From an uncultured Erysipelotrichaceae bacterium (GTDB lineage: Bacteria > Bacillota_I > Bacilli_A > Erysipelotrichales > Erysipelotrichaceae), in assembly GCA_964389885.1 (NCBI GenBank), contig CAYMGC010000002.1, positions 1-45,853 of the forward strand: DNA of 45,853 nucleotides. Reading direction: 5' to 3'. Positions 3,866-25,062 of the stretch are shown piece after piece. The notes under the pieces were generated by a model. The model searched no databases, had not been told where the DNA came from, and worked only from the letters and a program-made list of their open reading frames with translations. Each line of letters starts with the position of its first letter. The stretch's first letter is position 1. A program made the translations under genes and the position numbers.

Positions 3866-3920
3866 TATGATAGCGGATACTCATGACTATCTTAAAAGAA
3901 ACATCCGCCGTCTCCTTTCT
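3866..3920 (-). promoter_or_regulatory. SD-hairpin-AUG element, copy A (glxK leader)
   Basis: mRNA AGAAAGGAG-AC-[GGCGGAUG...UAUCCGCU]-AUCAUA-AUG; no SD near the start codon. Confidence 0.6.
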
Positions 3921-4470
3921 TTTTATTAGTCCAAGACTAATTTCTTCAAGCGGTTAACATAATCTTTTCTCTCACTTTCCCTAAGAAATAATCTGTTAAT
4001 CTACGTCGATAAAATCTATTTTTAACTCTTAATCCTAAATTATAAAAGACCTTTCATGAGAAGATATCAGCTCTAAGGTTAGTCGAGATGCCTTTGGCTT
4101 CCCTTAGATATTTGCTTTACAAAGAAAATGTCTTTTAAAATGTACCATATTTAAAATGGAATTCCTTATTTACTTTATAGGTATTCGCGATCGTAAAGAA
4201 GACAGGTTTTCTGAGAAAAAACAATAAGAAAAGGCATTAGATCCCTTAAAATATAAGGAAAAGAAGTATTCTTTTCTTTTTTTATAACAATGAAAAAGGA
4301 ATAAAGAGTGGAGTAGGAACTTTTCTTTACTGAGTCACAAATCCCTTACTTTCAGTGTAAGTGACTATACTAAGACAGGAATCGCTCAGGATTCCTAATG
4401 ACTTATACCCAAAAAAATTCTCTATTTTTCTATACAAGTTGAGGCAACATAGCTTGTTGAAAGGAATACC

Positions 4471-5682
4471 ATGACAAAACACATTCTTATTGGCATGACA
4501 GGGTCTATTGCCGCTTTTAAAATATGTTCTTTAGTCAGTTCTTTAACTAAAAAAGGTTACGACGTACGCGTCATTGAAACCAAACACGCTGCGGCTTTTG
4601 TAGGACCTTTAAGCCTTGCTGCGTTAAGCCGTCATGAAGTGATTCTAGATGAGTTTGATGGGACTCACCAAGAACAAATTCCTCATATTGAATTGGCCAA
4701 GTGGGCGGATGTTTTTTTAATTGCCCCTGCGGATGCCAATGTTTTGGCCAAAGCAGCCTGTGGAATAGCGGATGATTTATTGACCAGTTGCATCTTGGCT
4801 TGTACTTGTCCTATTTTGGCTGCTCCAGCTATGAATGTTCATATGTTCGAAAATGTAGCCACTCAACAAAATCTTAAAACATTACAAGCCAGGGGATGGC
4901 ACATTATTGATCCAGAATATGGCTATTTGGCTTGCCAAGATAGCGGTAAAGGTCGGATGGCTGAACCGAGTACTCTTGAAGAGGTCGTACTTGGGGTCTT
5001 AAATGAAAGCCAAGATCAAGAACAATTGCCTCTTTTTGGAAAAACCGTTTTGGTTTCGGCTGGACCCACTCAAGAATCTTTGGATCCCGTACGGTTTTTA
5101 TCCAATCATTCCAGTGGTAAACAAGGGTATGCCATTGCTAAAGCGGCCAAAGCCTTGGGCGCTCAAGTTATTTTGGTTTCTGGTCCAGTCAATTTAGACC
5201 ACCCGGAAGGCGTAGAGGTTATTCCTGTAATTAGTGCTTGTGATATGGAAAAAGCTGTTTTGGACAATGCGCCTAAAGCGGACTTCATTATCATGGCTGC
5301 CGCTGTAGCTGACTATCGCTTTAAAGAGCAATACGATCAAAAGATGAAAAAAGGCCAAGAGGCTATGACGCTTGAATTGGTCAAAAATCCCGATATTTTA
5401 GCCGAATTAGGAGCCCAGAAAGCGCCAGGACAAGTTCTTTGTGGCTTTGCGATGGAAACTCAAAACTTAGAAGAAAATGCACGCCATAAACTGCTCACTA
5501 AAAACTGTGATTTATTGGTAGCCAATAACCTACGGACCAAAGGAGCAGGATTTCAAGGGGATACCAATGTGGTGTCATTATTATTTCCAGATTCCATTGA
5601 GCGGTTAGGCTTAGAAACCAAAGAAGAGATTGGATATACGATTTTAAATAAAATGTTAGCCATTCAGAAAGGAAGTCATTAA
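4471..5682 (+). CDS. coaBC: Phosphopantothenoylcysteine decarboxylase/ligase
   Basis: TGSIAA, HIELAKWAD, PAMN, AGPTQE-DPVRFLSNHSSGKQG, AAVADY, GFAMET. Confidence 0.96.
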   Translation: MTKHILIGMTGSIAAFKICSLVSSLTKKGYDVRVIETKHAAAFVGPLSLAALSRHEVILDEFDGTHQEQIPHIELAKWADVFLIAPADANVLAKAACGIADDLLTSCILACTCPILAAPAMNVHMFENVATQQNLKTLQARGWHIIDPEYGYLACQDSGKGRMAEPSTLEEVVLGVLNESQDQEQLPLFGKTVLVSAGPTQESLDPVRFLSNHSSGKQGYAIAKAAKALGAQVILVSGPVNLDHPEGVEVIPVISACDMEKAVLDNAPKADFIIMAAAVADYRFKEQYDQKMKKGQEAMTLELVKNPDILAELGAQKAPGQVLCGFAMETQNLEENARHKLLTKNCDLLVANNLRTKGAGFQGDTNVVSLLFPDSIERLGLETKEEIGYTILNKMLAIQKGSH

Positions 5683-5683
5683 G

Positions 5684-6505
5684 ATGCTTCTTTGTATAGA
5701 TGTTGGAAACTCTAATATAACTATTGGAGTTTTTGACGGGGATCAATTGATCTGTAACTATCGCATGAACACCAAAGTCCGTCGCACGAGCGATGAATAT
5801 GGCTTCATGTTGGAAAACTTTTTACGCAATGCCAATGTGACGAAAGATGATATTGAAGGCGTAATTGTCAGCTCAGTTGTACCAAAGGTGATGCACTCAT
5901 TTCGCAATGGCATCGTGAAATTCATTGGTATTGAACCTGTTATTGTAGGACCTGATATTCCTACGGGGGTTAAAGTGGAACTAGATAATGCTCGTTCCGT
6001 TGGGGCTGACCGCATTGCGGATGTAGCTGGGGCCATTGAAGAATATGGCTATCCTCTTTTGATCGTAGACTTTGGAACGGCAACGACATTTGACTACGTG
6101 GATGAAAATGGGGTATTCAAAGCAGGAGCCATTGGGGTAGGTATTGAAAGTGGAGCCAATGCTCTTTGGGGACAAACGGCTCAATTGCCTGAAATTGAAA
6201 TCAAAAAACCCCAGAGTGTTTTAGGAAAAAATACCCAAGCTGCAATGCAAGCTGGTATTTTTTACCAATTTTTAGGTGGCTTTGAAAAAACCGTGGATGC
6301 TTTTCGCCAAGAAACCAATCAAAACTTTAAAGTCATTGCGACGGGAGGACTAGGTCGCGTTATTTGTCAACATACCGATTACATTGATGTCTATGATCCT
6401 AGATTGATTTTCAAAGGCTTAAAAGCGATTTATGAACGCGCAACGCAAGATAAAAAGATTCAAGATAAACCAGCAGAGGAAGAATTTGGCATTCTTGAAA
6501 TTTAA
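5684..6505 (+). CDS. coaX: Type III pantothenate kinase
   Basis: IDVGNSN, GADR, VDFGTATT and ATGG motifs; follows coaBC. Confidence 0.95.
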   Translation: MLLCIDVGNSNITIGVFDGDQLICNYRMNTKVRRTSDEYGFMLENFLRNANVTKDDIEGVIVSSVVPKVMHSFRNGIVKFIGIEPVIVGPDIPTGVKVELDNARSVGADRIADVAGAIEEYGYPLLIVDFGTATTFDYVDENGVFKAGAIGVGIESGANALWGQTAQLPEIEIKKPQSVLGKNTQAAMQAGIFYQFLGGFEKTVDAFRQETNQNFKVIATGGLGRVICQHTDYIDVYDPRLIFKGLKAIYERATQDKKIQDKPAEEEFGILEI

Positions 6506-6610
6506 GGGAAATGACTCTGTTGGGTTTTATTCCAAGCAAGAGAGCCATTTCCTGTTTAGAACAAATTTTTAGGAAAGAATAAGCTCTTTCCTAAAATTCC
6601 TTTTTAAATT

Positions 6611-6997
6611 ATGAATAAAACATTAGACCAAGACCAACGTTTAATCGATCCGCAAAAGCTAGAAGCTACAAAAGAGCGGATTGAAAAATTTGAACCAATT
6701 CATAGTGAATTGAAAAAACAGTTTTCTCATTACGAAAAACAAGCGAATCTTTTAGCTCAAGAGGTTCCTTTACTAGAAGAATTAGCCAAATGGTATTTTA
6801 GTCCACAATGGTTAGATGACTATGCCCTAGATGAATATGGTCATTTCGATCATTTGAAACGAGGTGTTCTTAGTCAAGATGAAGTAAGCAATCTTCTTGA
6901 TCAATATCGTGAATTGGCAACGGATCTACAAACCATTGCCAAAGCGATTTTAGATACCACAAATGGGACACCTCCACTTCCAAAACCCGAAGACTAA
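6611..6997 (+). CDS. Hypothetical protein, DUF4298-like
   Basis: WYFSPQWLDDY...LKRGVLSQD motif recalled from this family. Confidence 0.65.
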   Translation: MNKTLDQDQRLIDPQKLEATKERIEKFEPIHSELKKQFSHYEKQANLLAQEVPLLEELAKWYFSPQWLDDYALDEYGHFDHLKRGVLSQDEVSNLLDQYRELATDLQTIAKAILDTTNGTPPLPKPED

Positions 6998-7200
6998 GAC
7001 TAAATTTTTCTCAATCAAGGTTAAAAACAATAGAATTCGCTAACAATGATCGAAATAAAATGAGTAAGCTGTCCTTTTTGCACTCATAAAGTAAAGGCAA
7101 CTTTAATACATGGAGTAAAAATAAATTCTCTAACCGCAAGGTCCACCTTTGCGGTTTTTCTTTAATTTTTTGAAGCTGGAATCTTAAACCAAGACACGAA

Positions 7201-7223
7201 AAAGCTAGGTCGAAACCTAGCTT
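7201..7223 (-). terminator. Terminator after the pilus operon
   Basis: AAGCTAGGT-CGAA-ACCTAGCTT hairpin. Confidence 0.7.
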
Positions 7224-7244
7224 AAAGGGAAAGTGAGTAATATT

Positions 7245-8261
7245 TTATTTCTTGATAAACCGTTTGCCTCCTTTAGATAAGGCAAAGGTCATTAATCCAG
7301 AACTCAATAAAATCAATGCCCATTTTTGAAGTGAAACTTGAATGGCAGTATCGGGTTTATTGGAACTGATTTTAGAAGATGAGGTTTGAGAAACGGTGTT
7401 CGTATCCGGTTTTTGACTTTCCTCATTGGGTAAGGGTGGTTCCTCTTCTTCGAGTCGATTGATGCATTGTAATTTGACTTTCAAACCATCTACTGGACCC
7501 TTTTGATCATTGACAAAGAGACTTCCTTCTTCATCCATAAATACTTTGATACATTGTTTGGAAAGTTTATATCCTTCTGGCGCTTGAGTTTCCTGAATGT
7601 AGATGGTTTGGCCAAGATTTAAGCGAAATTCGACCATGCCGGTTTCCATATTTCCTTTTTTGGTTTCAATAAGCTGCATCGCTTCTGGGTCTTTAAAGGA
7701 AGAAAACGCAAAGTCTTTGTTTAAAATTGGCTCTTTATTGGCATCAACTTTTACAATACAAAGATCGGGAAGGGGATACGCTTTCGCTTGAATGCACAAG
7801 AAGTCCTCAGCACAATTTTTCTCATTGTTCCAAGCGGGAAGCATCGCCATGAAGTTTCCGACGAGTTCGTATTGGGCTGGATCACTGACACAAAAGAAGT
7901 AAAGACCATAGGGTAAGTGTTCAAAGATCGCTTTTCCTTCTTCATTGACTAAGCTACTTGCATAGGGACTTTCATTGCTTTTTTGAGAGGCTAAATATTG
8001 AAGGGCTTCTTTCATCTTGGTGGCATCATCCAGTTCATCCACTTGCAAAGTACAATCCTGATAGGGTTCTAAAAAAGTGAGGGTATCGCCATCGCTACTC
8101 GCACATCGATAGGCATCAAAGCGAACCCCTTGATAGGAACGTCCCATACTGCTTTCTTCTAAACGAATCTCAATCGTGCCTTCTAGGCTCTGCGCTTGTA
8201 AATGGATGGGATTTACGATAGTCCAAAAACTTATCCAAAGACAAAGAAATCGTTTAATCAT
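7245..8261 (-). CDS. Ancillary (basal) pilin, SpaA/Cna-B-like domains
   Basis: Start moved to MIKRFL (SD AGAAAGGAGG); signal peptide, E-box-like YIQETQAPEGY, KPDTA + TM + basic tail. Confidence 0.8.
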   Translation of the reverse strand: MIKRFLCLWISFWTIVNPIHLQAQSLEGTIEIRLEESSMGRSYQGVRFDAYRCASSDGDTLTFLEPYQDCTLQVDELDDATKMKEALQYLASQKSNESPYASSLVNEEGKAIFEHLPYGLYFFCVSDPAQYELVGNFMAMLPAWNNEKNCAEDFLCIQAKAYPLPDLCIVKVDANKEPILNKDFAFSSFKDPEAMQLIETKKGNMETGMVEFRLNLGQTIYIQETQAPEGYKLSKQCIKVFMDEEGSLFVNDQKGPVDGLKVKLQCINRLEEEEPPLPNEESQKPDTNTVSQTSSSKISSNKPDTAIQVSLQKWALILLSSGLMTFALSKGGKRFIKK

Positions 8262-8262
8262 T

Positions 8263-9087
8263 TCATTCCTCCTTTCTAGCGGCGTTTGGCCGCTTTTTTC
8301 GTTGATGCCATAAAAAGAAACCAACTAGAAGAACAAGGCAGATAGGCCAAAGACGAAAACAGATTTCTCGCCACGATCCAACAGCAGCTTGATTTTTTAC
8401 TTGAATCTTTTCCTGGCTTTCTTGCCAAGGAATTCGCTGACCAGTAACCAATAAGCGATGATCGTTGATGCCATAAGGCGTACAGGTCATAAGAGTGACA
8501 AGATCTTGATTGTCTTCAATGGCCAAGGCGTTTTTTTCACTGGGTAAAATGACTTGAATGTCTCGAACACGATAGGCCAGCTTTTCTTTTGGATTTTCAA
8601 TGTAGAAAGAATCCCCCACTTCGAGTTCATCTAAACGCGTAAAGAGTTCCGCTTGCATTAAACCGCGATGAGCGGAAAGCACCACCCGGGCACTAGAAGA
8701 GCCAATGGGCAAAGAGGAAGAGGGCAAATGACCAACTCCTTGACTTAAGGCTTCCTCTTCTACTCCATGGTAAATAGGAAGTTCTAAGGAAATTTTTGGA
8801 ATCGATAAAATGCCCATTACCCCATGACCCAAAAGTTGCAATTGATCTTCATAACTCGCTAAGCGTTCGCTTACCTGTGCTTGTCCATTTAAGGCAAGAT
8901 TCCACAAGGTAGCTTGTTCAAAACTTTTTGAAAAGTCTTGAGGGGCCATCGTTTGCATTTCTTTTTGATAACCTTGGATTTCTTGAGCGGATTGATGATG
9001 AGAAAACATCATCCATAGACTAGGCGCTATACAAAAACCTAGCCCTACAATTAGACAAAGAAGAGAAATCGAACGTTTGATCGGCAC
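8263..9087 (-). CDS. srtC: Class C (pilus) sortase
   Basis: GVGHL, SAHRG, LFTRLD, TLMTCTPYGINDHRLLV; N- and C-terminal TM segments. Confidence 0.95.
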   Translation of the reverse strand: MPIKRSISLLCLIVGLGFCIAPSLWMMFSHHQSAQEIQGYQKEMQTMAPQDFSKSFEQATLWNLALNGQAQVSERLASYEDQLQLLGHGVMGILSIPKISLELPIYHGVEEEALSQGVGHLPSSSLPIGSSSARVVLSAHRGLMQAELFTRLDELEVGDSFYIENPKEKLAYRVRDIQVILPSEKNALAIEDNQDLVTLMTCTPYGINDHRLLVTGQRIPWQESQEKIQVKNQAAVGSWREICFRLWPICLVLLVGFFLWHQRKKRPNAARKEE

Positions 9088-9091
9088 GATC

Positions 9092-10846
9092 TTACTGCTT
9101 CTTTTTCTTCATGGAACCTAAAAGTCCAGCTCCCACAATAATTGTTCCCGCTCCCATGCTAATCAAAGCGGTATTGCCACCGGTTAAAGGCAATTCTTTA
9201 CCACTACGGTTGATGATGGAAACATTTACACTTCCTGTACTGACATTGCCAGCTTGATTGGCATTGTTCACATCATGAGTCGTGCCATCGTAGTATTCCT
9301 TGTAAGCATAAGAAGCACTTAAGGACTTTAAAATGGTTGCACCTTCTCCTTGTTTTTCAACATAACTATTGCGATCACTCGTATAGGTAGGGGTCAAAGT
9401 TAAGGCAATACAAGTAAGCGGTTTGTGATACCCTTCTGGGGCTTGAGTTTCCAATAAGTAGTAGGTGCCTTGATCGAGACCATAAATGGTAAAGGTTCCA
9501 TCCGATTTGCTGACAATATCCACGCCGCTGCCGCTTGGATCGAGTACAAATCCGCCATCCTTTTCTTTTACTTTGATTTCGTTTTGACAAGCTTCATCGT
9601 GGTATAAGCGAAAGTGGGCATTTTCAAGAGGTAAAGGATTTCCAGATCCATCGGTTTTTTCACTGACTTTGAGGCCATCCACTTTGAAGGTAAAACACAC
9701 TACACAATCCCAAGGCGTAAACCCCGTTTGTCCTGTTCCATCGCTATCTGGATTGTTGGAGTATTCTAAACGAACTTGGTTTTCAAAACCTGGTCGTCCA
9801 GTCGCACTCATAGCCTGTTCGTTGAGCTTGGCATTATAACGCACTACAATTTCTTGGCCATAGGTGCTATTGGTACTGTTAAATTCGCGATCCAAAATAG
9901 CTTTTATATCCGCAATCGAAATAGAAAAGGTTTCGCCCGTTTGACTATCTGGAGTAGAAAGAACTTGAAGAGTAAATTCATTGGCTTTTAGGGTATAGGT
10001 TTTGCTTGCTCCTATCGCTTGAATTTGAATGGAGTTTTTATCTAAGTCCAAAGCGCTATCCATCTTGTCGTGGAAGACAAGCTGATAGGTTTGATAGGCG
10101 CCAATCGGAGGAATCGTGGTGGCGTATTGGTAGGGAATGGTTTGGCCAATTTCGTAATCACCGATGTCATTCCATCCCTCATTGGCCAAATTTCCATCAT
10201 CTTCTTGAATTTTTTTCTCTAAGGTTGGATAAACGCCTTTAAGTTGCAAGGTTTTATTTTCTGTAACGGTAGAGACTAAGCACAAAGAAGTGGCTTGATT
10301 TTGGGCTTTTGGAGCATCACTGGCCACCACTTCATCGATTAAGTAATAGCCCTTCTCCAGATTGGCAATGGTGTATTGTCCATTGCTATCGGTAGAATCG
10401 ATGGTAATGGATGTTGGGGTAACATGACTGGCTTTCAATTGATTGCGTAATTCTTGAATAATGGTACGAAAACCACTGGTATCGGGTTCAAGACCATCGG
10501 TTAAAGAGGTAGCAAAGCTAGCAAGATAGTCTTGTGCTTGCATCGCACTGACATTGGCAGCGGCCGTCCCCATTTTGCTTCCGACAAATGTTTGTAGGGC
10601 TGCTTTGGTAGTTGCTACGAATTCATAGCGATAAGAGGTTTCCCCAGGAGCCACACTCACACTAAAGAGAGGATAGAGTTCGAATTGTCGTCCCGCTAAA
10701 CTTCCAGCACCCCCAGGCGATAAGGTGATGGAGGCAGTATCAGATAAAATCGGAGTTTGTAAAGTGGAAAAAGAGGAGGCTTGAATGGGAAGGGTAAAAC
10801 TTGGCGCAAGGAGACTAAGAGCTAAAAGACAAAGTTTTGGATTCAT
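9092..10846 (-). CDS. Backbone (major) pilin with isopeptide D2-type domain
   Basis: Signal peptide, YSNNP motif, E-box YYLLETQAPEGY, LPLTG sorting signal; start probably MNPK (SD-like AGAAATGAG, 7-nt spacing) rather than 10858. Confidence 0.88.
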   Translation of the reverse strand: MNPKLCLLALSLLAPSFTLPIQASSFSTLQTPILSDTASITLSPGGAGSLAGRQFELYPLFSVSVAPGETSYRYEFVATTKAALQTFVGSKMGTAAANVSAMQAQDYLASFATSLTDGLEPDTSGFRTIIQELRNQLKASHVTPTSITIDSTDSNGQYTIANLEKGYYLIDEVVASDAPKAQNQATSLCLVSTVTENKTLQLKGVYPTLEKKIQEDDGNLANEGWNDIGDYEIGQTIPYQYATTIPPIGAYQTYQLVFHDKMDSALDLDKNSIQIQAIGASKTYTLKANEFTLQVLSTPDSQTGETFSISIADIKAILDREFNSTNSTYGQEIVVRYNAKLNEQAMSATGRPGFENQVRLEYSNNPDSDGTGQTGFTPWDCVVCFTFKVDGLKVSEKTDGSGNPLPLENAHFRLYHDEACQNEIKVKEKDGGFVLDPSGSGVDIVSKSDGTFTIYGLDQGTYYLLETQAPEGYHKPLTCIALTLTPTYTSDRNSYVEKQGEGATILKSLSASYAYKEYYDGTTHDVNNANQAGNVSTGSVNVSIINRSGKELPLTGGNTALISMGAGTIIVGAGLLGSMKKKKQ

Positions 10847-10858
10847 ACAGGGTCTCAT

Positions 10859-10991
10859 TTCTAAAAAGAAAAGCAGTGAAAGATAGAAGAAAGATAGGAA
10901 ATAAAGATAAAAGATTAATTGAAAGATGAGATATTAAAAAGAATAGAAAGTGAAAAGAAAAATAGAAGTTAGATAAGAAAAATAGAGAAGA
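10859..10991 (-). other. 133-nt almost G-free, pyrimidine-rich intergenic tract
   Basis: Only two C on the + strand (two G in the mRNA) across the whole spacer. Confidence 0.8.
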
Positions 10992-14297: not shown

Positions 14298-14474
14298 TGA
14301 TCGTTTCCTTTCTACAGATGGTTCTAGAAGCCATCCTTCAAACACTAAAAAAGGGATCCCTAGCTACTGTACGCTAAGACAATTGGTGGGGTAAAGAGCT
14401 TTTTAACCTTTTAGATATGTTTTAAATACGCTAAAAAATGGAATTTTCATCCTTTCGTCTTTCCTTTCTCAACC

Positions 14475-14504
14475 AAAAAGAAAAGACGATGCCATCGCAT
14501 CGTC
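14475..14504 (-). terminator. Intrinsic terminator after the K/S/T-rich gene
   Basis: GACGATGC-GATG-GCATCGTC then TTTTCTTTTT on the - strand. Confidence 0.8.
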
Positions 14505-14519
14505 ATCAAAACGGAAACC

Positions 14520-15275: not shown

Positions 15276-15285
15276 GGCAGTCTTT

Positions 15286-16227: not shown

Positions 16228-16230
16228 CTT

Positions 16231-16998
16231 TTATACTTCCTTTTTCTTAGCTTGTTCTTTTTTTAAGGCTTGATAGGCGACAAGCTTATCCTTTTGACAA
16301 AACGCTTGAAAAGGACATTGTTCACATTTTGGTTTTTTAGCGGTACAAAAATACCGACCAAAAAAAATGAGATCATGATGGCCTTGGTTCCAGCGCGATT
16401 GATCCACTTGGTCTTTAAGGGCTTCTTCTACTTGTCCGACGCTGTCTTCTACCTTGGCTAGACCTAAGCGTTTGGATACTCGTTCGACATGGGTATCCAC
16501 CGCAAAGGAAGGAATATCAAAGGCTACCGAACGAACGACATTGGCAGTTTTCCGTCCCACACCAGGCAAAGATTGCAATGCTTTTAAATCATAAGGAACT
16601 TGATCATGAAAATCTTCTACGAGCGCTTTGGACAAAGCGATGATGTGTTTGGCCTTGTTGCGATATAGACCAATGCTCTTTATAGTCTCTTCAACGTCGG
16701 CTAAATTGGCATTCATTAAGGCTTTGGCATCGGGCCAGCGCGAAAACAAGGCGGGAGTCACTTTATTGACGGATACATCCGTGGTTTGAGCCGAAAGAAC
16801 GACCGCCACTAAAAGCTCAAACGTATTGCGATGATTGAGTTCACACTGGGCTTGAGGAAAGATCGCTTCCACTGTATCCAAAATGACATTGGCTGAAGGT
16901 TTTTGGGAAAAAACAGGCAAAGTGGCTGCTCGATATTCGGCTTCTAAGGCCAAATCTTGACTTTTATCTTGGGCCATTAAATTGGATTCTTGTTTCAT
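16231..16998 (-). CDS. nth: Endonuclease III
   Basis: LSAQTTD, HhH LPGVGRKTANVV, VDTHV, C-x6-C-x2-C-x5-C; start placed at the ATGA overlap with dnaD. Confidence 0.95.
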   Translation of the reverse strand: MKQESNLMAQDKSQDLALEAEYRAATLPVFSQKPSANVILDTVEAIFPQAQCELNHRNTFELLVAVVLSAQTTDVSVNKVTPALFSRWPDAKALMNANLADVEETIKSIGLYRNKAKHIIALSKALVEDFHDQVPYDLKALQSLPGVGRKTANVVRSVAFDIPSFAVDTHVERVSKRLGLAKVEDSVGQVEEALKDQVDQSRWNQGHHDLIFFGRYFCTAKKPKCEQCPFQAFCQKDKLVAYQALKKEQAKKKEV

Positions 16999-17543
16999 CG
17001 CAAACCACTTTCTATGTCTTGGGCACTCAGCCCTCTTTGTTTCCAACTTTGTAATAAGGATTCAATATAATTGAGCGATCGACGATCATAGGCGGCAGCT
17101 TCATCAAGGGCTCGTAAGATAACGGATTCTTCAAATTCCTCTTGCCAACGCAAAATGCGCTCCATTTCGCCTCCAGAAAGAGGTCGGCCAAATTCATTGC
17201 CAATTTCGCGCAAAAGGCCTTGTTGAATGGGATTGCCAAGCGATTCGTGATTGGCATTATAGAGTCCATCCAATAAAAACTGCATCCCACTGCGTTGAAT
17301 ACGCACATGAAGATATCCTTTTTCGCTCAGTGAATCAATGGCTTGCTCTACCTCTTCCAAATCCAAACCACTCTTAGCTGAGATATCTTGCGCACTAATG
17401 GTGGTAGTGGGATTGGTTTCATTAAAGTAATTGATCAATAGCACCACGAGTACTTCCGCGGAGTTCAAATGAAAGGTTTCCAAATGAGCAAAAATCCAAT
17501 TGGTGCGATTGAGCCAAGGGGCATTCCAATCATCATGTGGCAT
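16995..17543 (-). CDS. dnaD: DnaD domain protein
   Basis: N-terminal winged helix, EFGRPLS..E, YIESLLQSW; dnaD-nth synteny. Confidence 0.88.
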   Translation of the reverse strand: MPHDDWNAPWLNRTNWIFAHLETFHLNSAEVLVVLLINYFNETNPTTTISAQDISAKSGLDLEEVEQAIDSLSEKGYLHVRIQRSGMQFLLDGLYNANHESLGNPIQQGLLREIGNEFGRPLSGGEMERILRWQEEFEESVILRALDEAAAYDRRSLNYIESLLQSWKQRGLSAQDIESGLR

Positions 17544-18042
17544 AATTTAAATTCCTTTCATACACCCAATCGAGCGTATCATAATCCAACATTAACAATT
17601 TGACATCGTTTTCCAGTTGATACACCGGACCACTGTAGCCATAGGCCAAAAACACAACACGAACGTCCATACCATAATCATTTTTGGCGATTTCTCTTGC
17701 TTCATTATAGTCTAAGGTATCGAGGTCTCGAGTGGTAATGAGATTTCCGGTCGCATCAAACCAGTACAACAACTCATGGGTATATCCTTGCCAGGTTACA
17801 TAATCAAAGGCCGTTTGTTGAAGACCTTGAATCGCAGGCACTTGGGCTTGAATGGTCTCTTTGACTTGAGCAATTTGCAGGTCGTGTAAACGGGCGGGAC
17901 CACTAATAAAGAGGGCCCATAAACAACAAATGATCAATCCAAGTAAAACCCAAAGACTTAAAGTCAAGGGCCAGCCATAGGTTTGACTTTTTTTGACGTT
18001 TTGCTTGGAAGTTGGTGATCGATCTTTAGATGAAAAAAACAT
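17533..18042 (-). CDS. Membrane-anchored protein, YpmB-like by position
   Basis: One N-terminal TM helix; lies upstream of dnaD-nth as ypmB does in Bacilli (inference). Confidence 0.55.
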   Translation of the reverse strand: MFFSSKDRSPTSKQNVKKSQTYGWPLTLSLWVLLGLIICCLWALFISGPARLHDLQIAQVKETIQAQVPAIQGLQQTAFDYVTWQGYTHELLYWFDATGNLITTRDLDTLDYNEAREIAKNDYGMDVRVVFLAYGYSGPVYQLENDVKLLMLDYDTLDWVYERNLNYAT

Positions 18043-18262
18043 GAATGCTTATCCTCTTTCCATATGCCTTTTTAAATAAAAGGTTGAAAGAAACCAGACC
18101 AAATTTCCCCTTAAGTCTTTGGTTTCTTTTAAAAGGTCATAAAAGTAGATTTTATTATACAAGTGATTTTTCACCATGGATCTTCCTATTTTGAACGTAA
18201 GAAAACCTTTAGAAATCCTAAAAATAAAAAAACTAGACCTAAGGCGATCTAGTTTGAAGCGC

Positions 18263-18940
18263 TTAAAATTCTTGACAAAATACCTTTAAAAATGCTGCTA
18301 CTTTTTGGGCTGATTCTTGAGCAAATTGGGCATATTCCATCGGGTTGTCTTCGTGGACGACCACATCACTTAACGTTCGCAAGACAAGACAGGGAATGGA
18401 AAACGCTTTGGCTGTTTGAGCGACAGCACCACCTTCCATTTCCGAACAGGCCGCATTTGGAAAATGGTTTAAAAGCCACGTATAGTCCTCTTGAGCGGCC
18501 ATAAATAAATCTTGGGTCGCAATCGTTCCCACCATCCAATTTAATTCCGTTTTTTGTGCGGCCTCTTGGGCTTTTTGGATAAGGGTAGGATCGGCGTGAA
18601 AATACAAGCCCAGCCCTTCTGGGCCATCAAATTGGGTGGTATCAAAATCAGCTTGAATAATGGTATCCGAGATGACCAAATCCCCCACTTGTTGTTGCGG
18701 TTTTAACCCACCAGCTACTCCCACGGAGAGTAGACAAGAAGGTTGATACAACTGGCACATCAAAGTGGCGGCAATGGCGGCAGCAACTTTTCCCACCCCA
18801 GATAAGGCGACGACGAGTTCTTGTTTGCCTAAATGGCCATGACGAAATTCTACATGAGCTACGCTACGGGTTGAAATTTTGCTCAGCGCTGCACTGATGG
18901 CCGTCATTTCTTGAGGTGTGGCGACAATGAGTCCAATCAT
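18263..18940 (-). CDS. mtnN: 5'-methylthioadenosine/S-adenosylhomocysteine nucleosidase
   Basis: SGVGKVAAA, GVAGG, EMEGGAVAQ, RTLSD; start MIGLIV with SD AGAAAGGA. Confidence 0.93.
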   Translation of the reverse strand: MIGLIVATPQEMTAISAALSKISTRSVAHVEFRHGHLGKQELVVALSGVGKVAAAIAATLMCQLYQPSCLLSVGVAGGLKPQQQVGDLVISDTIIQADFDTTQFDGPEGLGLYFHADPTLIQKAQEAAQKTELNWMVGTIATQDLFMAAQEDYTWLLNHFPNAACSEMEGGAVAQTAKAFSIPCLVLRTLSDVVVHEDNPMEYAQFAQESAQKVAAFLKVFCQEF

Positions 18941-18978
18941 AAATGTTTCTTCCTTTCTTGACTCGTTTTCAATTCTTA

Positions 18979-19704
18979 TCATTTAGGAGTCTTTTGACAA
19001 GCGATGAAGTACTTTTCACACGTTTCTAAAGGTTCTTCGCCAAAATCACCAAGAATTTCGAGTACCGTGAATCCAGCTTTTTGTAAGGCCTCTTGTAAAA
19101 CCTCTAAGGAATATACTCGCTGAACATGATGTTCTAAAACTACAGGTTGATTGGGCAAATAAAAGGCGAAGTCTTGAACAATTAAATCGTCTTCAGAGCG
19201 AATTCGCCATTCCACTTGAGTTCCATCACTAAAGGTTCCTTCTTCTTCATACCCATAATCATCCCGTTCCGCTTTAAATTCCTCTAAGCGATCGAGTCCA
19301 TGGCTATCGAAGAAAAAGAATCCACCCTCGACTAAATGGGCATAGACACTTTGAAAAAAAGATTCAATATCCTCCAGTAAATAGTTAAAAGAATCGCAAA
19401 AGCAACCAATGGCATCAAATTGTTCTAAGTTTTCTAAGTTGCGCATATCACCTTGAATAAAAACAATTTGATCATTTGTATCGCGTTTTTTCGCTTCTTC
19501 TAACATGGAGGCCGATAAATCAAGGGCAGACATCGTATGATTTTGAGCAAGTAAAGAGGTAATGGCACCACTTCCACAAGCCAATTCTAAAAAGGTTGGC
19601 CCAGGTTGATAGGATTCCACCCAGTCCACCCATTGATTGGAAGCTTCTAAATCCCCGACCAAGGCATCATAGTAATGGGCCAAAGTCTTTTCATATTGTC
19701 CCAT
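18979..19704 (-). CDS. Class I SAM-dependent methyltransferase (YqeM-like)
   Basis: ELACGSG, DLSASML, GDMR, DSFNYL; position after rsfS. Confidence 0.88.
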   Translation of the reverse strand: MGQYEKTLAHYYDALVGDLEASNQWVDWVESYQPGPTFLELACGSGAITSLLAQNHTMSALDLSASMLEEAKKRDTNDQIVFIQGDMRNLENLEQFDAIGCFCDSFNYLLEDIESFFQSVYAHLVEGGFFFFDSHGLDRLEEFKAERDDYGYEEEGTFSDGTQVEWRIRSEDDLIVQDFAFYLPNQPVVLEHHVQRVYSLEVLQEALQKAGFTVLEILGDFGEEPLETCEKYFIACQKTPK

Positions 19705-19771
19705 TTAAATCGTCCTTTCTATTGCTTTAAAAAAGAGCTCTTTTCCCCAAGAGGCAAAAGAGCATTTTTTG

Positions 19772-20116
19772 TCACTCAAATCGTTGAACGGGGCATTCTT
19801 GATACAAGCGATCTAGAGAATACAGCTCGCGCTCATTGCCCACAAAGAGATGAATCACAATGTCTTTAAGATCCACTAAAAGCCAACGGGATTCGCTATT
19901 TCCTTCTACACGAAAATCACCATCGTAGTCGGTTTCAAAAAGACGGTCTTTAATATTTTGAGCAAGCGCATGATTTTGTTTTAAATTGTCACTGCTTGCT
20001 ACAATCATCGTATCCATAAAAGGGGTCAAGGCGGTGGTATCGTATACTTCAATGTCATGACCCTTTTTTTCACTAATGGCTTTGATGATGAGGTCTGTTA
20101 ATGTTTTTTGATCCAT
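19772..20116 (-). CDS. rsfS: Ribosome silencing factor
   Basis: EKKGHDI, WLLVDLKDIVIHLF, RELYSLDRL. Confidence 0.93.
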   Translation of the reverse strand: MDQKTLTDLIIKAISEKKGHDIEVYDTTALTPFMDTMIVASSDNLKQNHALAQNIKDRLFETDYDGDFRVEGNSESRWLLVDLKDIVIHLFVGNERELYSLDRLYQECPVQRFE

Positions 20117-20128
20117 AAAATAGCTTTC

Positions 20129-21208
20129 TTACTTTTCAGGGGATATTTTTGCTTTGTCTTTGCTTGACTTATCCTTACCTTTTTCTTTTTCTAAAAATGC
20201 TTTATTTTCCGCTTTTACCAGCAAAAATCCATTGTATAAATCATGTAAACAAGCTTTATATAATCCGGAGGAGTCATATCCGCGCAAAGGATCAAGTTTA
20301 TCAGCAATGAAGACAATCATCGCATAGGGATCATAACTTGTCCCTTTGACATGGTTGAAAATGGCATTGCGAATCATGGGACTTTCTAAGCCATAAAAGC
20401 GTTTGACCACTTCACTGCCCACATACCCATGCCAAATGGCATGATGTTCACTGAGTGCTTCTGGAAAAAGAGCCCGAATCCATTTTTCTTGTTCGTCTTT
20501 GGGCATGTCTTTGGCAATATCATGAAAAAGTCCCGCGAGCCAAGCCGCATGGGGATTCAATTTATGGGCTTTGGCCAATTCACGACAAAGCCGTGCCACA
20601 CTGCAAGAGTGGGCAAAACGTGAAGGACTCATTTGATTACGAATCCACCAAATTAAATACAATTCTTGATCCAAGATATACGTTAAAACCGATTTTGGAA
20701 CCATGTTGAGACGTTTGCCATTGCGAATTTGAGTAGAAGAGACATCCATAGGTTCCATAGATAAGGGAAGAAATGTTTCTCCAAGATCCAAGAAGTCTTC
20801 TTGATCACCACGCATGACTACAGCAAAAGTAGCTAATTCTTTTAAACGTTCGGGATCTTTCCATTTGTCAAATTGCTTGGCTTGATCTTGGCCGAGCAAC
20901 CAAAAAAAATCCACATTGGGGAAAAACTTAGTGAGCGTTTCAAGCGTATCGACGGTATAGCTTTGACCATTGCGTTTGAGTTCGACATCACACACTTTAA
21001 ACTGTGGATGGTCTTGACAAGCCAAGCGAATCATTTTCAAACGATGGGCGGCATTGGTTAAAGGCCGATCTTTTAAAGGGGAATGGCCTGCTGGAATAAA
21101 CCAAACTTCATCGACACCAAGATGATCGAGCGCTGCTTGCCCCATGGCAAGGTGTCCATTGTGAATGGGATCAAACGATCCGCCCAACAAAGCGACTTTC
21201 TTTTTCAT
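20129..21208 (-). CDS. nadD: Nicotinate-nucleotide adenylyltransferase fused to a YqeK-type HD hydrolase
   Basis: GGSFDPIHNGH, SYTVDTL, VSSTQIR, then RFAHS, FHDIAK, ADKLDP. Confidence 0.93.
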   Translation of the reverse strand: MKKKVALLGGSFDPIHNGHLAMGQAALDHLGVDEVWFIPAGHSPLKDRPLTNAAHRLKMIRLACQDHPQFKVCDVELKRNGQSYTVDTLETLTKFFPNVDFFWLLGQDQAKQFDKWKDPERLKELATFAVVMRGDQEDFLDLGETFLPLSMEPMDVSSTQIRNGKRLNMVPKSVLTYILDQELYLIWWIRNQMSPSRFAHSCSVARLCRELAKAHKLNPHAAWLAGLFHDIAKDMPKDEQEKWIRALFPEALSEHHAIWHGYVGSEVVKRFYGLESPMIRNAIFNHVKGTSYDPYAMIVFIADKLDPLRGYDSSGLYKACLHDLYNGFLLVKAENKAFLEKEKGKDKSSKDKAKISPEK

Positions 21209-21259
21209 TTCGTTTCGGGCTGGAGACTCATAACTAGGAAAGCCCGAACCAACCTTTCT
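21209..21259 (-). promoter_or_regulatory. SD-hairpin-AUG element, copy B (nadD leader)
   Basis: mRNA AGAAAGG-UUGG-[UUCGGGCU...AGCCCGAA]-ACGAA-AUG; no proximal SD. Confidence 0.6.
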
Positions 21260-21353
21260 TTTTTATGTCTCCATTTTCCTTCTTTTTGAGGCCAAACAGT
21301 GTTCCATAGTTGGAAACGAAATGCGTCTTTCAATGGAGCCACAATTTTGGGCT

Positions 21354-21641
21354 TTAGCGAATACCTAGCTTGTTTTCTTTGCTTTGTTTGTACAGAGTAA
21401 ACGTCCGTCCAATAATTTGAATAATTTCACTTCCTGTAACGCTTGCGCATTCAATGGCGGCTTGCCGAACACTGAGTTCACTGGTTTTTTGCATGGTGAC
21501 TTTAACCAGTTCATGCGCTTCTAAATCAGCCGCGAGCGTTTCAAAGAAGGAAGAGGTTAAATTGGCTTTGCCAATTTGAAGCATTGAGGGAAGCTCCATC
21601 GCCATAGTGCGAAGCTTCTTTTTATTTTGTGCGCTCAGCAT
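21354..21641 (-). CDS. yhbY: YhbY/CRM RNA-binding protein
   Basis: QIGK, LEAHELVKV, QIIGRTFTLYK. Confidence 0.92.
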   Translation of the reverse strand: MLSAQNKKKLRTMAMELPSMLQIGKANLTSSFFETLAADLEAHELVKVTMQKTSELSVRQAAIECASVTGSEIIQIIGRTFTLYKQSKENKLGIR

Positions 21642-22723
21642 TAAATCATCGCCTTTCGAAATGTAACTTGAATGCCTTTAGGGGCTTTCACGCTAATGGA
21701 TTGAATGTCTCCACTTACGCTAAACCAGCCAAGGCCTTGAATCACTACATCCATTTTTTGATTGGGACGTAGTTTAGGAGCATGCCAAGTTTTCATCGTA
21801 TCCAACGATTCATCCAAAGCAGGGGATAACATTTCCCCTAAATGCTCCTTCCATAACCGATCAGCATCGGCTAATTTGCCGCGATGAATGGGCAAAGACA
21901 AAGAAAAATAGCCTACAATGCTCGCTTTTCCCTTGCATACCACATCCATACGCGCCAATCCCCCTACCGCAAAGGATTGATCTTCATAAATCTGACAAAT
22001 GTAGGGTTTTAAAGGTTTAGTTGGAATGACTTGTTTTAAATCGGCTCCTTGTAACCAAGCCAATACGGATTTATCGTTTTCAAGACCTGGTGTATCAAAC
22101 AGTTTTCGATGGTGCCAAGGCCGTTCAATGATATCAAGTGTCGTTCCAGGGTTACGAGAAATGGTCAATTCTTTACTTCCAAGCAATTTATTGACCAAGG
22201 TTGATTTTCCCGAATTGGCCATTCCCATAAAGATGACATTTTGGTTAGGAGCATAATGGTCAGCAGCCCATTCGATTTGTTCAACTACATCTTGAGCTTT
22301 TTCTCCATCTTTTGTCATGTAGCCCGCTACGATGATGTCTTTCACATGAATGTCTTCTTCTTTTAAACGACTTTCCAAATAGGCTTTGATCTTTTTTTCG
22401 CTCATTGTGGCTGGCAATAAATCGCGTTTAGTCGCCACAAGAATGATATCTTTGTCGGGTAAGCGACGATTTAAGCGACTGACTAAGTTGCTTTCAAGAT
22501 TAAATAAATCCACGGTCCAAAACACTACACCATCCAAATGATTAACTTTTTCAATGGTATTTCCCGTGGCAATGCCTTGTTGCATATTGATCGTTACATC
22601 TCCATAGTGACGCAAACGATAACAGCGCTGGCAATAGTCGGCCTCTAAAGAAGGCACATAGCCAAGCGCATTGGGATCCTGATTTTGTAGGCGAATCCCG
22701 CATCCTTTACAAAATTCTGACAT
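21641..22723 (-). CDS. yqeH: Ribosome biogenesis GTPase YqeH
   Basis: CKGCG...CQRC zinc finger, TKRD, GMANSGKS, PGTT, DTPG; start MSEFC. Confidence 0.94.
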   Translation of the reverse strand: MSEFCKGCGIRLQNQDPNALGYVPSLEADYCQRCYRLRHYGDVTINMQQGIATGNTIEKVNHLDGVVFWTVDLFNLESNLVSRLNRRLPDKDIILVATKRDLLPATMSEKKIKAYLESRLKEEDIHVKDIIVAGYMTKDGEKAQDVVEQIEWAADHYAPNQNVIFMGMANSGKSTLVNKLLGSKELTISRNPGTTLDIIERPWHHRKLFDTPGLENDKSVLAWLQGADLKQVIPTKPLKPYICQIYEDQSFAVGGLARMDVVCKGKASIVGYFSLSLPIHRGKLADADRLWKEHLGEMLSPALDESLDTMKTWHAPKLRPNQKMDVVIQGLGWFSVSGDIQSISVKAPKGIQVTFRKAMI

Positions 22724-23240
22724 GACGACCCTTCCGTTTAAGTTGGCCTTTTTTTTCGAGTCTTGCATACACTACTTCTTCAAGGTGTCGCATGAATTGG
22801 GTATCCTTTGGCTCATCTTCATAGAGTGGACTGCTCAAAATGGTATACGCTCCAGCTAAATGCCCTCCAAGCATATCCGTAAACAATTGATCGCCCATCA
22901 CGGCTACTTGACTCGGGGAAAGACGATGGCGCACCATTTCAAACCAAAAGGAAAAGGGCAATGGTTTGCAACAAAACCAATGCATCGAAAATGGGGGGCA
23001 TCCATTCATCACCCGTAAAGCGTGTTTTTTGGTGTTGTTGGTAAACAAGACAACCTCTAAGCCAGCTTCTTGTACAGCTTTTAAAAACTGTACGGCCTGT
23101 GGTCGACAATGCGTATCCGTATGACAGGCTAAGGTGTTGTCGATATCACACAATAACAAGCGAATACCTTGTTTTTTTAAAGCGTCAAGGTCGAGCTGGG
23201 CATAGGAATCGATCGCAAGATCGGGTAAAAAGAGCTTCAT
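22707..23240 (-). CDS. yqeG: YqeG family HAD IIIA phosphatase
   Basis: DIDNTL, TNN, KP, GDQLFTD. Confidence 0.92.
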   Translation of the reverse strand: MKLFLPDLAIDSYAQLDLDALKKQGIRLLLCDIDNTLACHTDTHCRPQAVQFLKAVQEAGLEVVLFTNNTKKHALRVMNGCPPFSMHWFCCKPLPFSFWFEMVRHRLSPSQVAVMGDQLFTDMLGGHLAGAYTILSSPLYEDEPKDTQFMRHLEEVVYARLEKKGQLKRKGRHVRIL

Positions 23241-23245
23241 TCTTC

Positions 23246-24844
23246 TTATTTTAGCGATACTTCGCGCGGCTTGTCAAAATGGTCCATGAGGGCCATAGCG
23301 CATTGTAAGCCATCAATTGCCGAAGTCATAATGCCCCCTGAATACCCTGAGCCTTCTCCACAGGGATACAAACCTTGAATGTTGCTTTCAAGCGTTTCTT
23401 TGGTTCTTGGTATGCGAATAGAAGAAGAGCTGCGCGTTTCCACTCCAGTTAAAATGGCTCCCTCTAGAAAACCAGGAACTCTTTTATCAAAAGCTAGAAG
23501 AGCTTCTTGTAAGGATGTGGCAATTGGAGTGGGAAGAAGATCGTGAAAATTGGTGAAGACAGTGCCTAAAGGATAAGTAGGGTTTACCGTTTCAAAATGA
23601 TCGGAGATTTGATTTTGGACAAAATCTTTAGCCAGTTGCACCGGCGCTTTATAACTATTGGAAAGCGCATAGGCTTTTTTCTCTAAGGCTTCTTGATAAC
23701 GTAAACCATCAAAAACGTCCTCTCCCGTATCCGAAGCATCCACTTGGACTAAAAGAGCGGCATTGGCATTTTCTCCTCCTCGATCACTATAGGACATGCC
23801 GTTGACTACAACGGTTTCGGGTTCACACGCAGCAGCAATGACATATCCTCCTGGGCACATACAAAAGCTATAGACCCCTTTTCCGGTGGAGACGGTTTGA
23901 CTCAATTGATAACGGGCTGGAATAAAATCGGGATTTTGATATTGGGTTTTGAGCATCGCTTTATTGATGAACTCTTGCAAATGCTCAATGCGTACCCCAA
24001 TGGCAAAGGGTTTGGCTTCCATATCCAATCCCTTTTCATACAACATTTGAATGGTATCGCAAGCGGAATGGCCAATGGCTAAGATGAGAGCTTGGCAGTT
24101 GATCCACGTTTGGCTTTGGTCAAGCGTGGAAACAAGGCCAATGGCTTTTAGTTTTCCCTCCTCCACTTGGATATCGTCTAAGCGATGATCGAATAAAAAT
24201 TCACCACCCAGTTTTTCAATTTCTTGGCGTAAGTTTTGCAAAATCTGTACGAAACCATCGGTGCCCACATGAGGATGTTGTTCGTATAAGATATTGGGAT
24301 TGGCACCAAGATTGACGAGTTCTTCAAAGACTTTGCGGACTTTGAGATTTTTCGAACGTGTCGTTAATTTGCCATCGCTAAAGGCTCCTGCGCCTCCCAT
24401 ACCAAATTGCACATTGCTTTCAGGATTAAGTTGACCATCCTTCCAGAAGGTTTGAACATCTTGGGAACGTTTTTCAATGGCACTCCCCCGCTCAATGATG
24501 AGCGGCTTATAGCCATATTGGGCCAATAATAAGGCGGCAAACATTCCCGCGGGTCCAAAGCCGACCACTACAGGGCGGTTTTGAAGCGGTGTTTCCTGTT
24601 TAGGGGTAAAGAAAAAGCGCTCATCGGGAGCGACGATGACATCTTTATTTTTTAAGTATTTTTTTTCGTGTTTAGCTTCTACATCCACTACAAAGGAAAA
24701 AAGGACCTTTTGTCCTCTAGCATCCATGCTTTTACGATGGATTGACCAGCTCAAAAGATCCTGTTTTGGCATATTGAGTTTTTTGAGAAGACTTTCCTCG
24801 ATCTTTTTAGGATCGGTGCATTTCACCTGATGGACTCTAATCAT
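23246..24844 (-). CDS. NAD(P)/FAD-dependent oxidoreductase (uncharacterised flavoprotein family)
   Basis: GFGPAG, GAGAFSDGKL, FCMCPGG, GEGSGYSGGI; start moved to MIRVHQ, where the family-like sequence begins. Confidence 0.9.
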   Translation of the reverse strand: MIRVHQVKCTDPKKIEESLLKKLNMPKQDLLSWSIHRKSMDARGQKVLFSFVVDVEAKHEKKYLKNKDVIVAPDERFFFTPKQETPLQNRPVVVGFGPAGMFAALLLAQYGYKPLIIERGSAIEKRSQDVQTFWKDGQLNPESNVQFGMGGAGAFSDGKLTTRSKNLKVRKVFEELVNLGANPNILYEQHPHVGTDGFVQILQNLRQEIEKLGGEFLFDHRLDDIQVEEGKLKAIGLVSTLDQSQTWINCQALILAIGHSACDTIQMLYEKGLDMEAKPFAIGVRIEHLQEFINKAMLKTQYQNPDFIPARYQLSQTVSTGKGVYSFCMCPGGYVIAAACEPETVVVNGMSYSDRGGENANAALLVQVDASDTGEDVFDGLRYQEALEKKAYALSNSYKAPVQLAKDFVQNQISDHFETVNPTYPLGTVFTNFHDLLPTPIATSLQEALLAFDKRVPGFLEGAILTGVETRSSSSIRIPRTKETLESNIQGLYPCGEGSGYSGGIMTSAIDGLQCAMALMDHFDKPREVSLK

Positions 24845-24893
24845 AAAAATAGCGGATTGGATACTTATAAGGGGAGGAAAATCCGCTCCTTCC
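24845..24893 (-). promoter_or_regulatory. SD-hairpin-AUG element, copy C (oxidoreductase leader)
   Basis: mRNA GGAAGG-[AGCGGAUU...AAUCCGCU]-AUUUUU-AUG; no proximal SD. Confidence 0.6.
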
Positions 24894-25062
24894 AGTAACG
24901 TATCCCTTAACCTAAGGCTAATTTCCTCCAAAAAGCTCCTTTCGAAGCAAAATCCCATGGTCATGATTGGCCAAAGACTTCATGGGTTCCCTACTCCTTA
25001 GGACTTTTATCCTAAAGTAAAAGTCTAAAGTTCGAAAAGGATGATTGACATGAAAGAGCAAG

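What the first reader, a model, noticed from the sequence alone, without database searches (positions are those of the whole stretch)
3866..24893. Conserved hairpin element between Shine-Dalgarno and AUG of three unrelated genes
Seen: glxK (3866-3920), nadD (21209-21259) and the FAD oxidoreductase (24845-24893) have no SD next to the start codon, but a good SD 46, 44 and 43 nt upstream. In each, an 8-bp stem closes a 38-, 35- or 37-nt hairpin whose collapse leaves 8, 9 and 6 nt between SD and AUG. The stems differ yet stay paired (GGCGGAUG/UAUCCGCU, UUCGGGCU/AGCCCGAA, AGCGGAUU/AAUCCGCU). The loops share a 5' pyrimidine tract (UUUCU/UUCCU) and a 3' motif UYAURAGUMUCC (UCAUGAGUAUCC, UUAUGAGUCUCC, UUAUAAGUAUCC). 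Known: looped-out SD-AUG spacers exist (T4 gene 38/25, structure-assisted RBSs in Gram-positives). Inference: a shared sequence motif plus covariation at unrelated genes suggests a dedicated cis-element recognised by a factor, or a domesticated mini-repeat. I do not recognise it as a named family.
Basis: partly seen in the sequence, partly recalled or inferred. Interest (0 to 1): 0.85.

Follow-up and report, generated by a model that had tools for sequence, protein, structure and literature searches.

The report
Transposon scars kept as ribosome-binding sites
The three hairpins are worn-down ends of a known RNA-guided jumping gene (IscB family) that inserted directly in front of start codons; about 50 genes in this genome carry such a scar and likely rely on its ribosome-binding site, which the stem is predicted to fold back next to the start codon.

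Summary
Observation confirmed, origin identified. The element is the iscB-downstream end of IscB-type IS200/IS605 (ISC) transposons. Two copies in this genome still follow a HEARO RNA and an iscB remnant, and 132 intact iscB ends share the layout SD, stem, TTCCT, hairpin, TCC, stem, ATGA. The family inserts 5' of ATGA (PMC4810608), often between a gene's SD and its ATG. The genome holds 52 remnants; 49 precede long ORFs. Of 45 parsed, 43 start ATGA, none has a proximal SD, and collapsed SD-AUG spacing (mode 6-9) matches canonical genes. In a sister genome, 11 old copies keep SD (98%) and stem (94%), while the transposase hairpin is at 77% and upstream DNA at 55%. Split-RBS function is inferred, not shown: free-RNA folding often pairs the SD with the UUCCU tract instead. 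The scan earlier noted SD-carrying IscB ends on other DNA; new here is mass retention after transposon loss and erosion into plain hairpins. My searches found no paper on it.

The parts
3862..3947 (-). IscB-end remnant in front of glxK (young GCGGAT subfamily; found only in this genome among 12 of the genus)
3912..3920 (-). transposon-borne Shine-Dalgarno, glxK copy
3872..3909 (-). closing stem (3902-3909 with 3872-3879) enclosing the pyrimidine tract (3896-3901) and decayed transposase hairpin
   Evidence: predicted P=0.96 when SD and AUG are held open
2720..3865 (-). glxK, glycerate kinase; ATGA at the insertion target
21205..21273 (-). IscB-end remnant in front of nadD (old TTCGGG subfamily; shared with G004 and G005 only)
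21252..21259 (-). transposon-borne Shine-Dalgarno, nadD copy
   Evidence: AGAAAGGT identical in G004 and G005
21214..21248 (-). closing stem (21241-21248 with 21214-21221); GTCTCCA at 21221-21227 can also pair with TGGAGAC at 21267-21273 (possible pseudoknot)
20129..21208 (-). nadD (cytidylyltransferase-like plus HD domain); ATGA target
24841..24943 (-). IscB-end remnant in front of the FAD oxidoreductase, including about 55 nt of decayed iscB 3' coding sequence (GGAGGAAA 24922-24929, GGATAC 24900-24905)
   Evidence: local alignment to a G004 copy that retains iscB tail: score 81 vs shuffled max 43
24886..24893 (-). transposon-borne Shine-Dalgarno, FAD oxidoreductase copy (overlaps the stem base)
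24851..24887 (-). closing stem (24880-24887 with 24851-24858) enclosing TTCCTCC (24873-24879) and GTATCC (24859-24864)
23246..24844 (-). FAD-dependent oxidoreductase, true start 24844

Best explanation
Each element is the decayed iscB-downstream end of an IscB-type IS200/IS605 transposon that inserted just 5' of an ATGA start codon, and it likely now works as the gene's only ribosome-binding site, with the closing stem predicted to fold the leftover transposase hairpin out of the way. Steps: (1) the family targets N|ATGA (published; footprint shown here). (2) Insertion at a start leaves the native SD at the far, HEARO end (shown for 18 of 63 intact elements and for the C132/C131 copy). (3) The end carries AGAAAGGAG directly before a covarying stem (shown). 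(4) The transposon body is later deleted, but the end is kept where a gene depends on it (inferred from 49 of 52 remnants vs 26 of 63 intact elements preceding long ORFs). (5) SD and stem stay under purifying selection while the inner hairpin shrinks, ending as a plain SD-hairpin-AUG leader (pattern shown; selection inferred). (6) The 30S subunit binds the distal SD and the AUG across the stem, as for T4 genes 38 and 25 (inferred, untested).
For: Origin: HEARO (81.7 bits, E 5.5e-16), an RRXRR remnant and this element lie in one row at C132/C131, and likewise at C62. Intact iscB ends share the layout; 19 of 53 hits are also hit by a profile of intact ends only. Target: [AG]TG[AG] follows 129 of 132 intact ends; ATGA starts 43 of 45 remnants vs 231 of 531 canonical starts, p 7e-13. 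The flank of the C132/C131 copy matches the uninterrupted SD-ATG leader of the G005 ortholog. SD: 77 of 132 intact ends have a >=6-nt SD within 16 nt of the stem vs 3.2% of in-gene windows; it lies in three iscB frames or after the stop, and uses AGG in 72 of 93 Arg codons vs 14.8% elsewhere. Stem: 77% Watson-Crick vs 41% +/- 2.6 in partner shuffles, 63 arm pairs, pairing-blind anchors. Spacing: linear 26-57 nt, collapsed mode 6-9, canonical mode 8-9; proximal SD in 0 of 45; only 3 of 45 have an alternative start near the SD. Empty orthologs mostly have a proximal SD. Selection: 11 ortholog pairs found by protein match give SD 86/88, stem 150/160, inner hairpin 115/150, upstream 112/203; 4-fold sites 306/634.
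Against: No expression, ribosome-profiling or reporter data. In free-RNA nested folding the closing stem has P>0.5 in only 17 of 44 copies (0.34, 0.0, 0.0 for the three reported) and the SD pairs with the UUCCU tract in 21 of 44. With SD and AUG held open the stem wins in 29 of 42 but still not in the FAD oxidoreductase copy (pseudoknots not modelled; anti-SD assumed because no 16S 3' end was found). Spacing and stem are inherited from the transposon, so they alone do not show function; in intact elements the stem could serve TnpA. Only 3 two-sided changes occur among 80 orthologous stem pairs: 2 break the pair and none is compensatory... of 79 aligned pairs 73 are unchanged, 3 one-sided changes keep the pair, 3 break it. 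The remnant profiles were seeded on SD-bearing copies, which favours SD. The glxK and nadD copies show no significant pairwise alignment to one iscB-tailed reference and no iscB or HEARO debris upstream; their assignment rests on profile and model matches. 30 of 63 intact elements sit at neither an SD nor a long ORF.
Confidence: 0.76

Rival explanations
1. The transposon end has been exapted as a regulatory switch: the UUCCU tract sequesters the SD (off), and an upstream GGAGGAAA helix or a pseudoknot (GGAUAC with GUAUCC, crossing the closing stem) frees it (on), perhaps through a protein, temperature or transcription kinetics.
For: SD:tract pairing is predicted in 21 of 44 copies. The tract stays 58/66 identical in orthologs. 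20 of 27 young copies can form a >=7-bp helix between the upstream region and the tract, vs 2.5 (max 6) in shuffles. 10 of 38 alignment boundaries fall at -109 to -102, at the GGAGGAA motif. A >=5-bp b/b' helix occurs in 31 of 52 remnants vs 26 of 132 intact ends.
Against: Downstream genes share no pathway (one search list). Minimal copies such as C115 have lost almost all the inner sequence. The upstream motif is simply iscB coding sequence, and the young copies are related, so the counts are not independent. No Rfam match.
Confidence: 0.12
2. Functionless debris: transposon ends decaying slowly at start codons, with the genes translated by other means (weak proximal SD, leaderless transcripts or coupling to the upstream gene).
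For: The layout is inherited whole from the transposon. Several glxK orthologs look leaderless and nadD orthologs look coupled (read by eye). Free-RNA folds often lack the stem.
Against: SD 98% and stem 94% identical where upstream DNA is 55% and 4-fold sites 48%. Stem and SD are better kept than the hairpin between them (p 2e-5 and 4e-6). None of 45 has a proximal SD. Remnants precede long ORFs far more often than intact elements (p 8e-10).
Confidence: 0.09
3. The hairpin is removed from the mRNA (IStron-like splicing) or skipped by a translating ribosome (hopping).
For: IS200/IS605 elements fused to self-splicing introns exist (named in PMC4810608 passages). Removing the stem would give canonical spacing.
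Against: The elements are 26-57 nt, far too short for a group I or II intron core (established knowledge). Inner length varies from 3 to 45 nt. Only 3 of 45 have a start codon near the SD, and lengths are not kept in frame.
Confidence: 0.03

Closest known systems
ISC (IscB-encoding IS200/IS605) transposons with N|ATGA targets (Kapitonov et al. 2016, PMC4810608; passages read) and ISGst5 with TAM TTCAT (Meers et al., 10.1101/2023.03.14.532601; passages read)
   Same: Subterminal hairpin end next to the ATGA(A) target, iscB (RRXRR + HNH) and HEARO/omega RNA at the other end; no target duplication seen.
   Different: Here only the target-side end survives, with the transposase hairpin decayed. 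Term searches of the main text of PMC4810608 gave 0 hits for 'start codon' and 'Shine-Dalgarno'; the preprint's one 'start codon' hit is a plot axis. Supplements were not read.
Split ribosome-binding sites of T4 genes 38 and 25 (review PMC3014915; passages read)
   Same: SD too far from the AUG, brought to working distance by a stem between them (22 to 5 nt and 27 to 11 nt in T4; 26-57 to about 6-9 nt here).
   Different: T4 cases are single genes with mutational proof. Here there are about 50 chromosomal genes, transposon-derived, with a longer loop and no experiment yet.
PATEs and REPs (gene-less IS200/IS605 derivatives; passages in both papers above)
   Same: Short non-coding multi-copy hairpins derived from Y1-transposase ends.
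   Different: PATEs keep both ends and can move; these keep one end only, sit almost only at starts, and conserve SD and outer stem rather than the transposase hairpin.
IStrons and outward-facing IS promoters (recalled; IStron named passages)
   Same: A mobile element that limits the damage of its insertion by restoring host gene expression.
   Different: Those act by splicing or transcription; this one would act at translation initiation.

Membership tests
ISC / IscB IS200-IS605 end | lies directly 3' of iscB, with HEARO at the other end | tested here: met
   Met for family copies C132/C131 and C62. The three window copies have lost the body; only the FAD oxidoreductase copy keeps a significant iscB tail.
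ISC / IscB IS200-IS605 end | subterminal imperfect hairpin shared by both ends | tested here: met
   Same hairpin at both ends of C132; decayed in remnants, 5.3 vs 7.8 pairs.
ISC / IscB IS200-IS605 end | insertion 5' of ATGA without duplication | tested here: met
   ATGA in 43 of 45; C132/C131 flank matches the empty G005 leader (one site, one base shorter in G005).
ISC / IscB IS200-IS605 end | mobilised by a Y1 TnpA | tested here: inconclusive
   No PF01797 match in G000, which is 79% complete; activity not testable.
PATE | both transposon ends present without an ORF | tested here: not met
   HEARO-end signal upstream of only 4 of 53 hits, none of them in the window.
T4-type split RBS | distal SD, no proximal SD, stem collapses spacing to canonical | tested here: met
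T4-type split RBS | the stem forms in the initiating mRNA | tested here: inconclusive
   Predicted in 17 of 44 free and 29 of 42 with SD and AUG open.
T4-type split RBS | stem and distal SD are required for translation | not testable with these tools
   needs reporters or ribosome profiling
Riboswitch or other Rfam cis-element | match to a curated family; downstream genes of one pathway | tested here: not met
   0 gathering hits in the window; one chance hit at E 0.25, away from the element, in 11 loci; unrelated downstream genes.

The most novel reading that the evidence does not exclude
IscB transposons carry an evolved portable split ribosome-binding site, and repeated waves of them have replaced the native translation-initiation signal of roughly 85 genes (about 50 recognisable remnants plus about 35 plain SD-hairpin-AUG leaders, which are also ATGA-rich) in this lineage, including polA, der, gmk, pth, nadD and transketolase: a transposon rewiring bacterial translation initiation genome-wide, with a built-in SD/anti-SD switch available for regulation.
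Probability: 0.45. Interest if true: 0.87.

Novelty: new variant of a known kind. Interest (0 to 1): 0.72.

Why it matters
It gives a reason why a transposon that targets ATGA is tolerated, adding translation-level rescue to the known splicing and promoter strategies of mobile elements. It offers an origin for looped-out SD-AUG leaders, so far known from a few phage genes, with a dated series from intact element to plain hairpin. It supplies dozens of natural variants (loops of 3-45 nt on a fixed collapsed spacing) to test how large a structure the 30S subunit accepts between SD and AUG. It also warns that such leaders cause wrong start calls (here 24964 instead of 24844).

Tried and rejected
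Riboswitch-like multi-helix RNA (my first idea, note 1): dropped once the upstream part proved to be iscB coding tail. Rfam: no match to the element. Minimum-energy folds of the three leaders are no more stable than shuffles (z -0.37, -1.41, -0.06). A loose left-end pattern gave 169 mostly chance hits. A fixed pattern over 121 genomes of the order found nothing, not even in G000, so it is uninformative. MAFFT alignment A2 misregistered the variable arm and was not used for pair counts. The first end parser mis-parsed several loci and was replaced. Ortholog conservation is biased for the stem because G004/G005 copies were found by a stem pattern; one search is the unbiased version. No RNA holder was listed. 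The Y1 transposase was not found with PF01797 in a 79% complete genome. Two papers on HEARO and OMEGA could not be read, so what they say on insertion sites is unchecked.
Full report
Observation. The three leaders are as described: a distal SD, an 8-bp stem closing 38, 35 or 37 nt, and 5-6 nt to the ATG. Pfam supports glycerate kinase, NadD-HD and an FAD-dependent protein. The shared 12-nt motif occurs 7 times in the 1.69-Mb genome, always in this element. A first profile found dozens more. A descriptor blind to ATG gave 64 hits with an SD, of which 36 precede an ATG opening a long ORF, against 9 of 478 without an SD. Profiles cut before the spacer gave 53 hits at E<0.01 and none in the reversed genome. 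C132 and C131 are one copy across a contig join (55-nt overlap), leaving 52 loci, 49 of them before a long ORF.

Origin. The best-kept loops read CCCATGACTGAAGTCACGGG, which I recalled as an IS200/IS605 hairpin, and I tested that lead. At C132/C131 the order is HEARO RNA (81.7 bits, just under the gathering score of 83; E 5.5e-16), a broken RRXRR gene, then the element and ATGA; C62 repeats this with a weaker HEARO hit. Intact iscB genes (RRXRR and HNH) in relatives end in the same layout. Of 259 iscB loci gathered, 242 had the 3' flank and 132 distinct ends could be parsed; the rest were duplicates or unparsed, and these ends are related, not independent. 129 of 132 are followed by [AG]TG[AG]. 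This matches the published N|ATGA target (PMC4810608, passages) and TAM TTCAT (10.1101/2023.03.14.532601, passages). The 45-55 nt further upstream in young copies are decayed iscB codons. For glxK and nadD the link is by profile and covariance model, not by surviving iscB sequence.

The intact end carries an SD and a covarying stem. 77 of 132 ends have a 6-nt or better SD within 16 nt of the stem, against 3.2% of windows inside iscB. It falls in three reading frames (49, 30, 3) or after the stop (9), and Arg codons there are AGG in 72 of 93 cases against 14.8% elsewhere, so it is not a protein constraint. With anchors that ignore pairing, 63 distinct arm pairs are 77% Watson-Crick against 41% in partner shuffles (maximum 49.5% of 2000; slid registers 28-53% vs 82%); a 21-row alignment gives the same picture. 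This shuffle ignores relatedness, and in an active element the stem could serve the transposase. Both ends were located in 63 elements: 18 have an SD stranded just outside the HEARO end (control 57 of 874), 26 precede an ORF of 80 codons or more, 11 do both and 30 neither. So fresh insertions hit starts often but not always.

The remnants. Of 52 loci, 45 parsed with SD and long ORF (a few stems were mis-parsed). Linear SD-AUG distance is 26-57 nt; collapsed, it peaks at 6-9, like the 8-9 of 531 canonical starts. None has a proximal SD; 43 start ATGA against 231 of 531. The inner hairpin has fallen from 7.8 to 5.3 pairs and its length ranges 3-45 nt against 27-44. The seeds required an SD, which favours SD-bearing copies. 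glxK and the FAD oxidoreductase carry the element only in G000; nadD carries it in G000, G004 and G005, 3 of 28 genomes with an N-terminal match. Of 13 young G004/G005 copies with a G000 ortholog, 10 sites are empty in G000, most with a proximal SD by eye. Using 1.51 of about 1.9 Mb of G005 and protein matches only, none of 18 young copies is shared (7 orthologs have a proximal SD by my strict rule), while 11 of 13 binned as old are (one exception is a mis-binned young copy). In those 11: SD 86/88, stem 150/160, tract 58/66, inner hairpin 115/150, spacer 46/64, upstream 112/203; of 80 stem pairs 73 are unchanged, 3 changed and still paired, 3 broken, 1 gapped. Four-fold sites are 306/634 identical. 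A covariance model finds 44, 42 and 22 copies in G000, G004 and G005 and at most 1 in 58 other relatives; it was trained mostly on G000 and scored at most 85 candidates a genome, so other lineages may hold their own families.

A wider class. 54 further genes have a strong distal SD and no proximal one; 36 fold a hairpin at z<-2 (one artefact) against 7 of 93 controls, and 41 start ATGA. Of 18 with a G005 ortholog, 12 keep a distal SD and 10 a hairpin; two plain hairpins in G000 are recognisable IS ends in G005. I infer that many are the end state of the same process.

Against. Folding does not simply favour the looped-out form. The three leaders are no more stable than shuffles. The closing stem has P>0.5 in 17 of 44 copies and the SD pairs with the UUCCU tract in 21. 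Holding SD and AUG open, the stem forms in 29 of 42 (three mis-parsed copies left out): glxK 0.96, nadD 0.93, FAD oxidoreductase 0.0. Opening cost plus SD pairing averages -7.8 kcal/mol against -2.8 for 200 canonical starts (assumed anti-SD). Extra helices (upstream GGAGGAAA with the tract in 20 of 27 young copies; GGAUAC with GUAUCC crossing the stem) may free the SD or form a switch; pseudoknots were not modelled. No expression data were available.

Known and new. The parent element and its target are published, and split RBSs are proven for T4 genes 38 and 25 (PMC3014915, passages). A 2026 OMEGA review has no hit for 'start codon', 'ATGA' or 'Shine' (PMC13565253, term search). Nine searches (listings only) showed no paper on an IS-borne SD; two key papers were not held and no supplements were read. 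Five earlier AI notes of this scan report SD-carrying IscB-type ends at start codons in other genomes; my reading predates that look-up, I tested the same claim on other loci, and they are not independent support. A look-up for domesticated remnants returned nothing. Verdict: transposon origin about 0.97, split-RBS function about 0.78; a new variant of known kinds; interest 0.72.

Noticed in passing
G000 genome-wide, e.g. C101, C77, C7+10949, C9+18668, C15+170: 54 genes with a strong distal SD, no proximal SD and no profile match: 36 fold a hairpin at z<-2 (one a numeric artefact) vs 7 of 93 controls; 41 start ATGA. Two are recognisable IS ends in G005, and some show compensatory changes (by eye).
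   Followed up: partly
G000 C19:~770-820 and C21:~5026-5076: Minimal fusions of the HEARO-side hairpin directly to the 3' half of the target-side end, with the ATGA lost; the C21 one sits just upstream of a full remnant before der.
   Followed up: no
G000 C38 vs L364, L379: The same start codon carries a GCGGAT-type remnant in G000 and a TTCGGC-type remnant in G004 and G005: the site seems to have been hit twice.
   Followed up: no
L068, L104, L150, L158, L159, L216, L225 (intact iscB ends): Where the SD lies further from the stem, the extra sequence is often itself a hairpin (8 of 24 at -3 kcal/mol or better), which would preserve collapsed spacing.
   Followed up: partly
L004, L013, L023 (G007); L005, L014, L015 (G003, G006): Some IscB families lack a clear SD at the end; one of them is often followed by ATGG. 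A natural control group.
   Followed up: no
L289-L294 (glxK orthologs): TACAAT 7-9 nt before ATG and no SD: glxK looks leaderless in several genus members (by eye).
   Followed up: no
L308, L309 (nadD of G004, G005): nadD is about 35-40 residues longer than in G000, with an in-frame insert near residue 138.
   Followed up: no
window 24845-24964: The leader is stop-free in frame, so ORF finders extend the FAD oxidoreductase by 40 codons through the remnant.
   Followed up: yes
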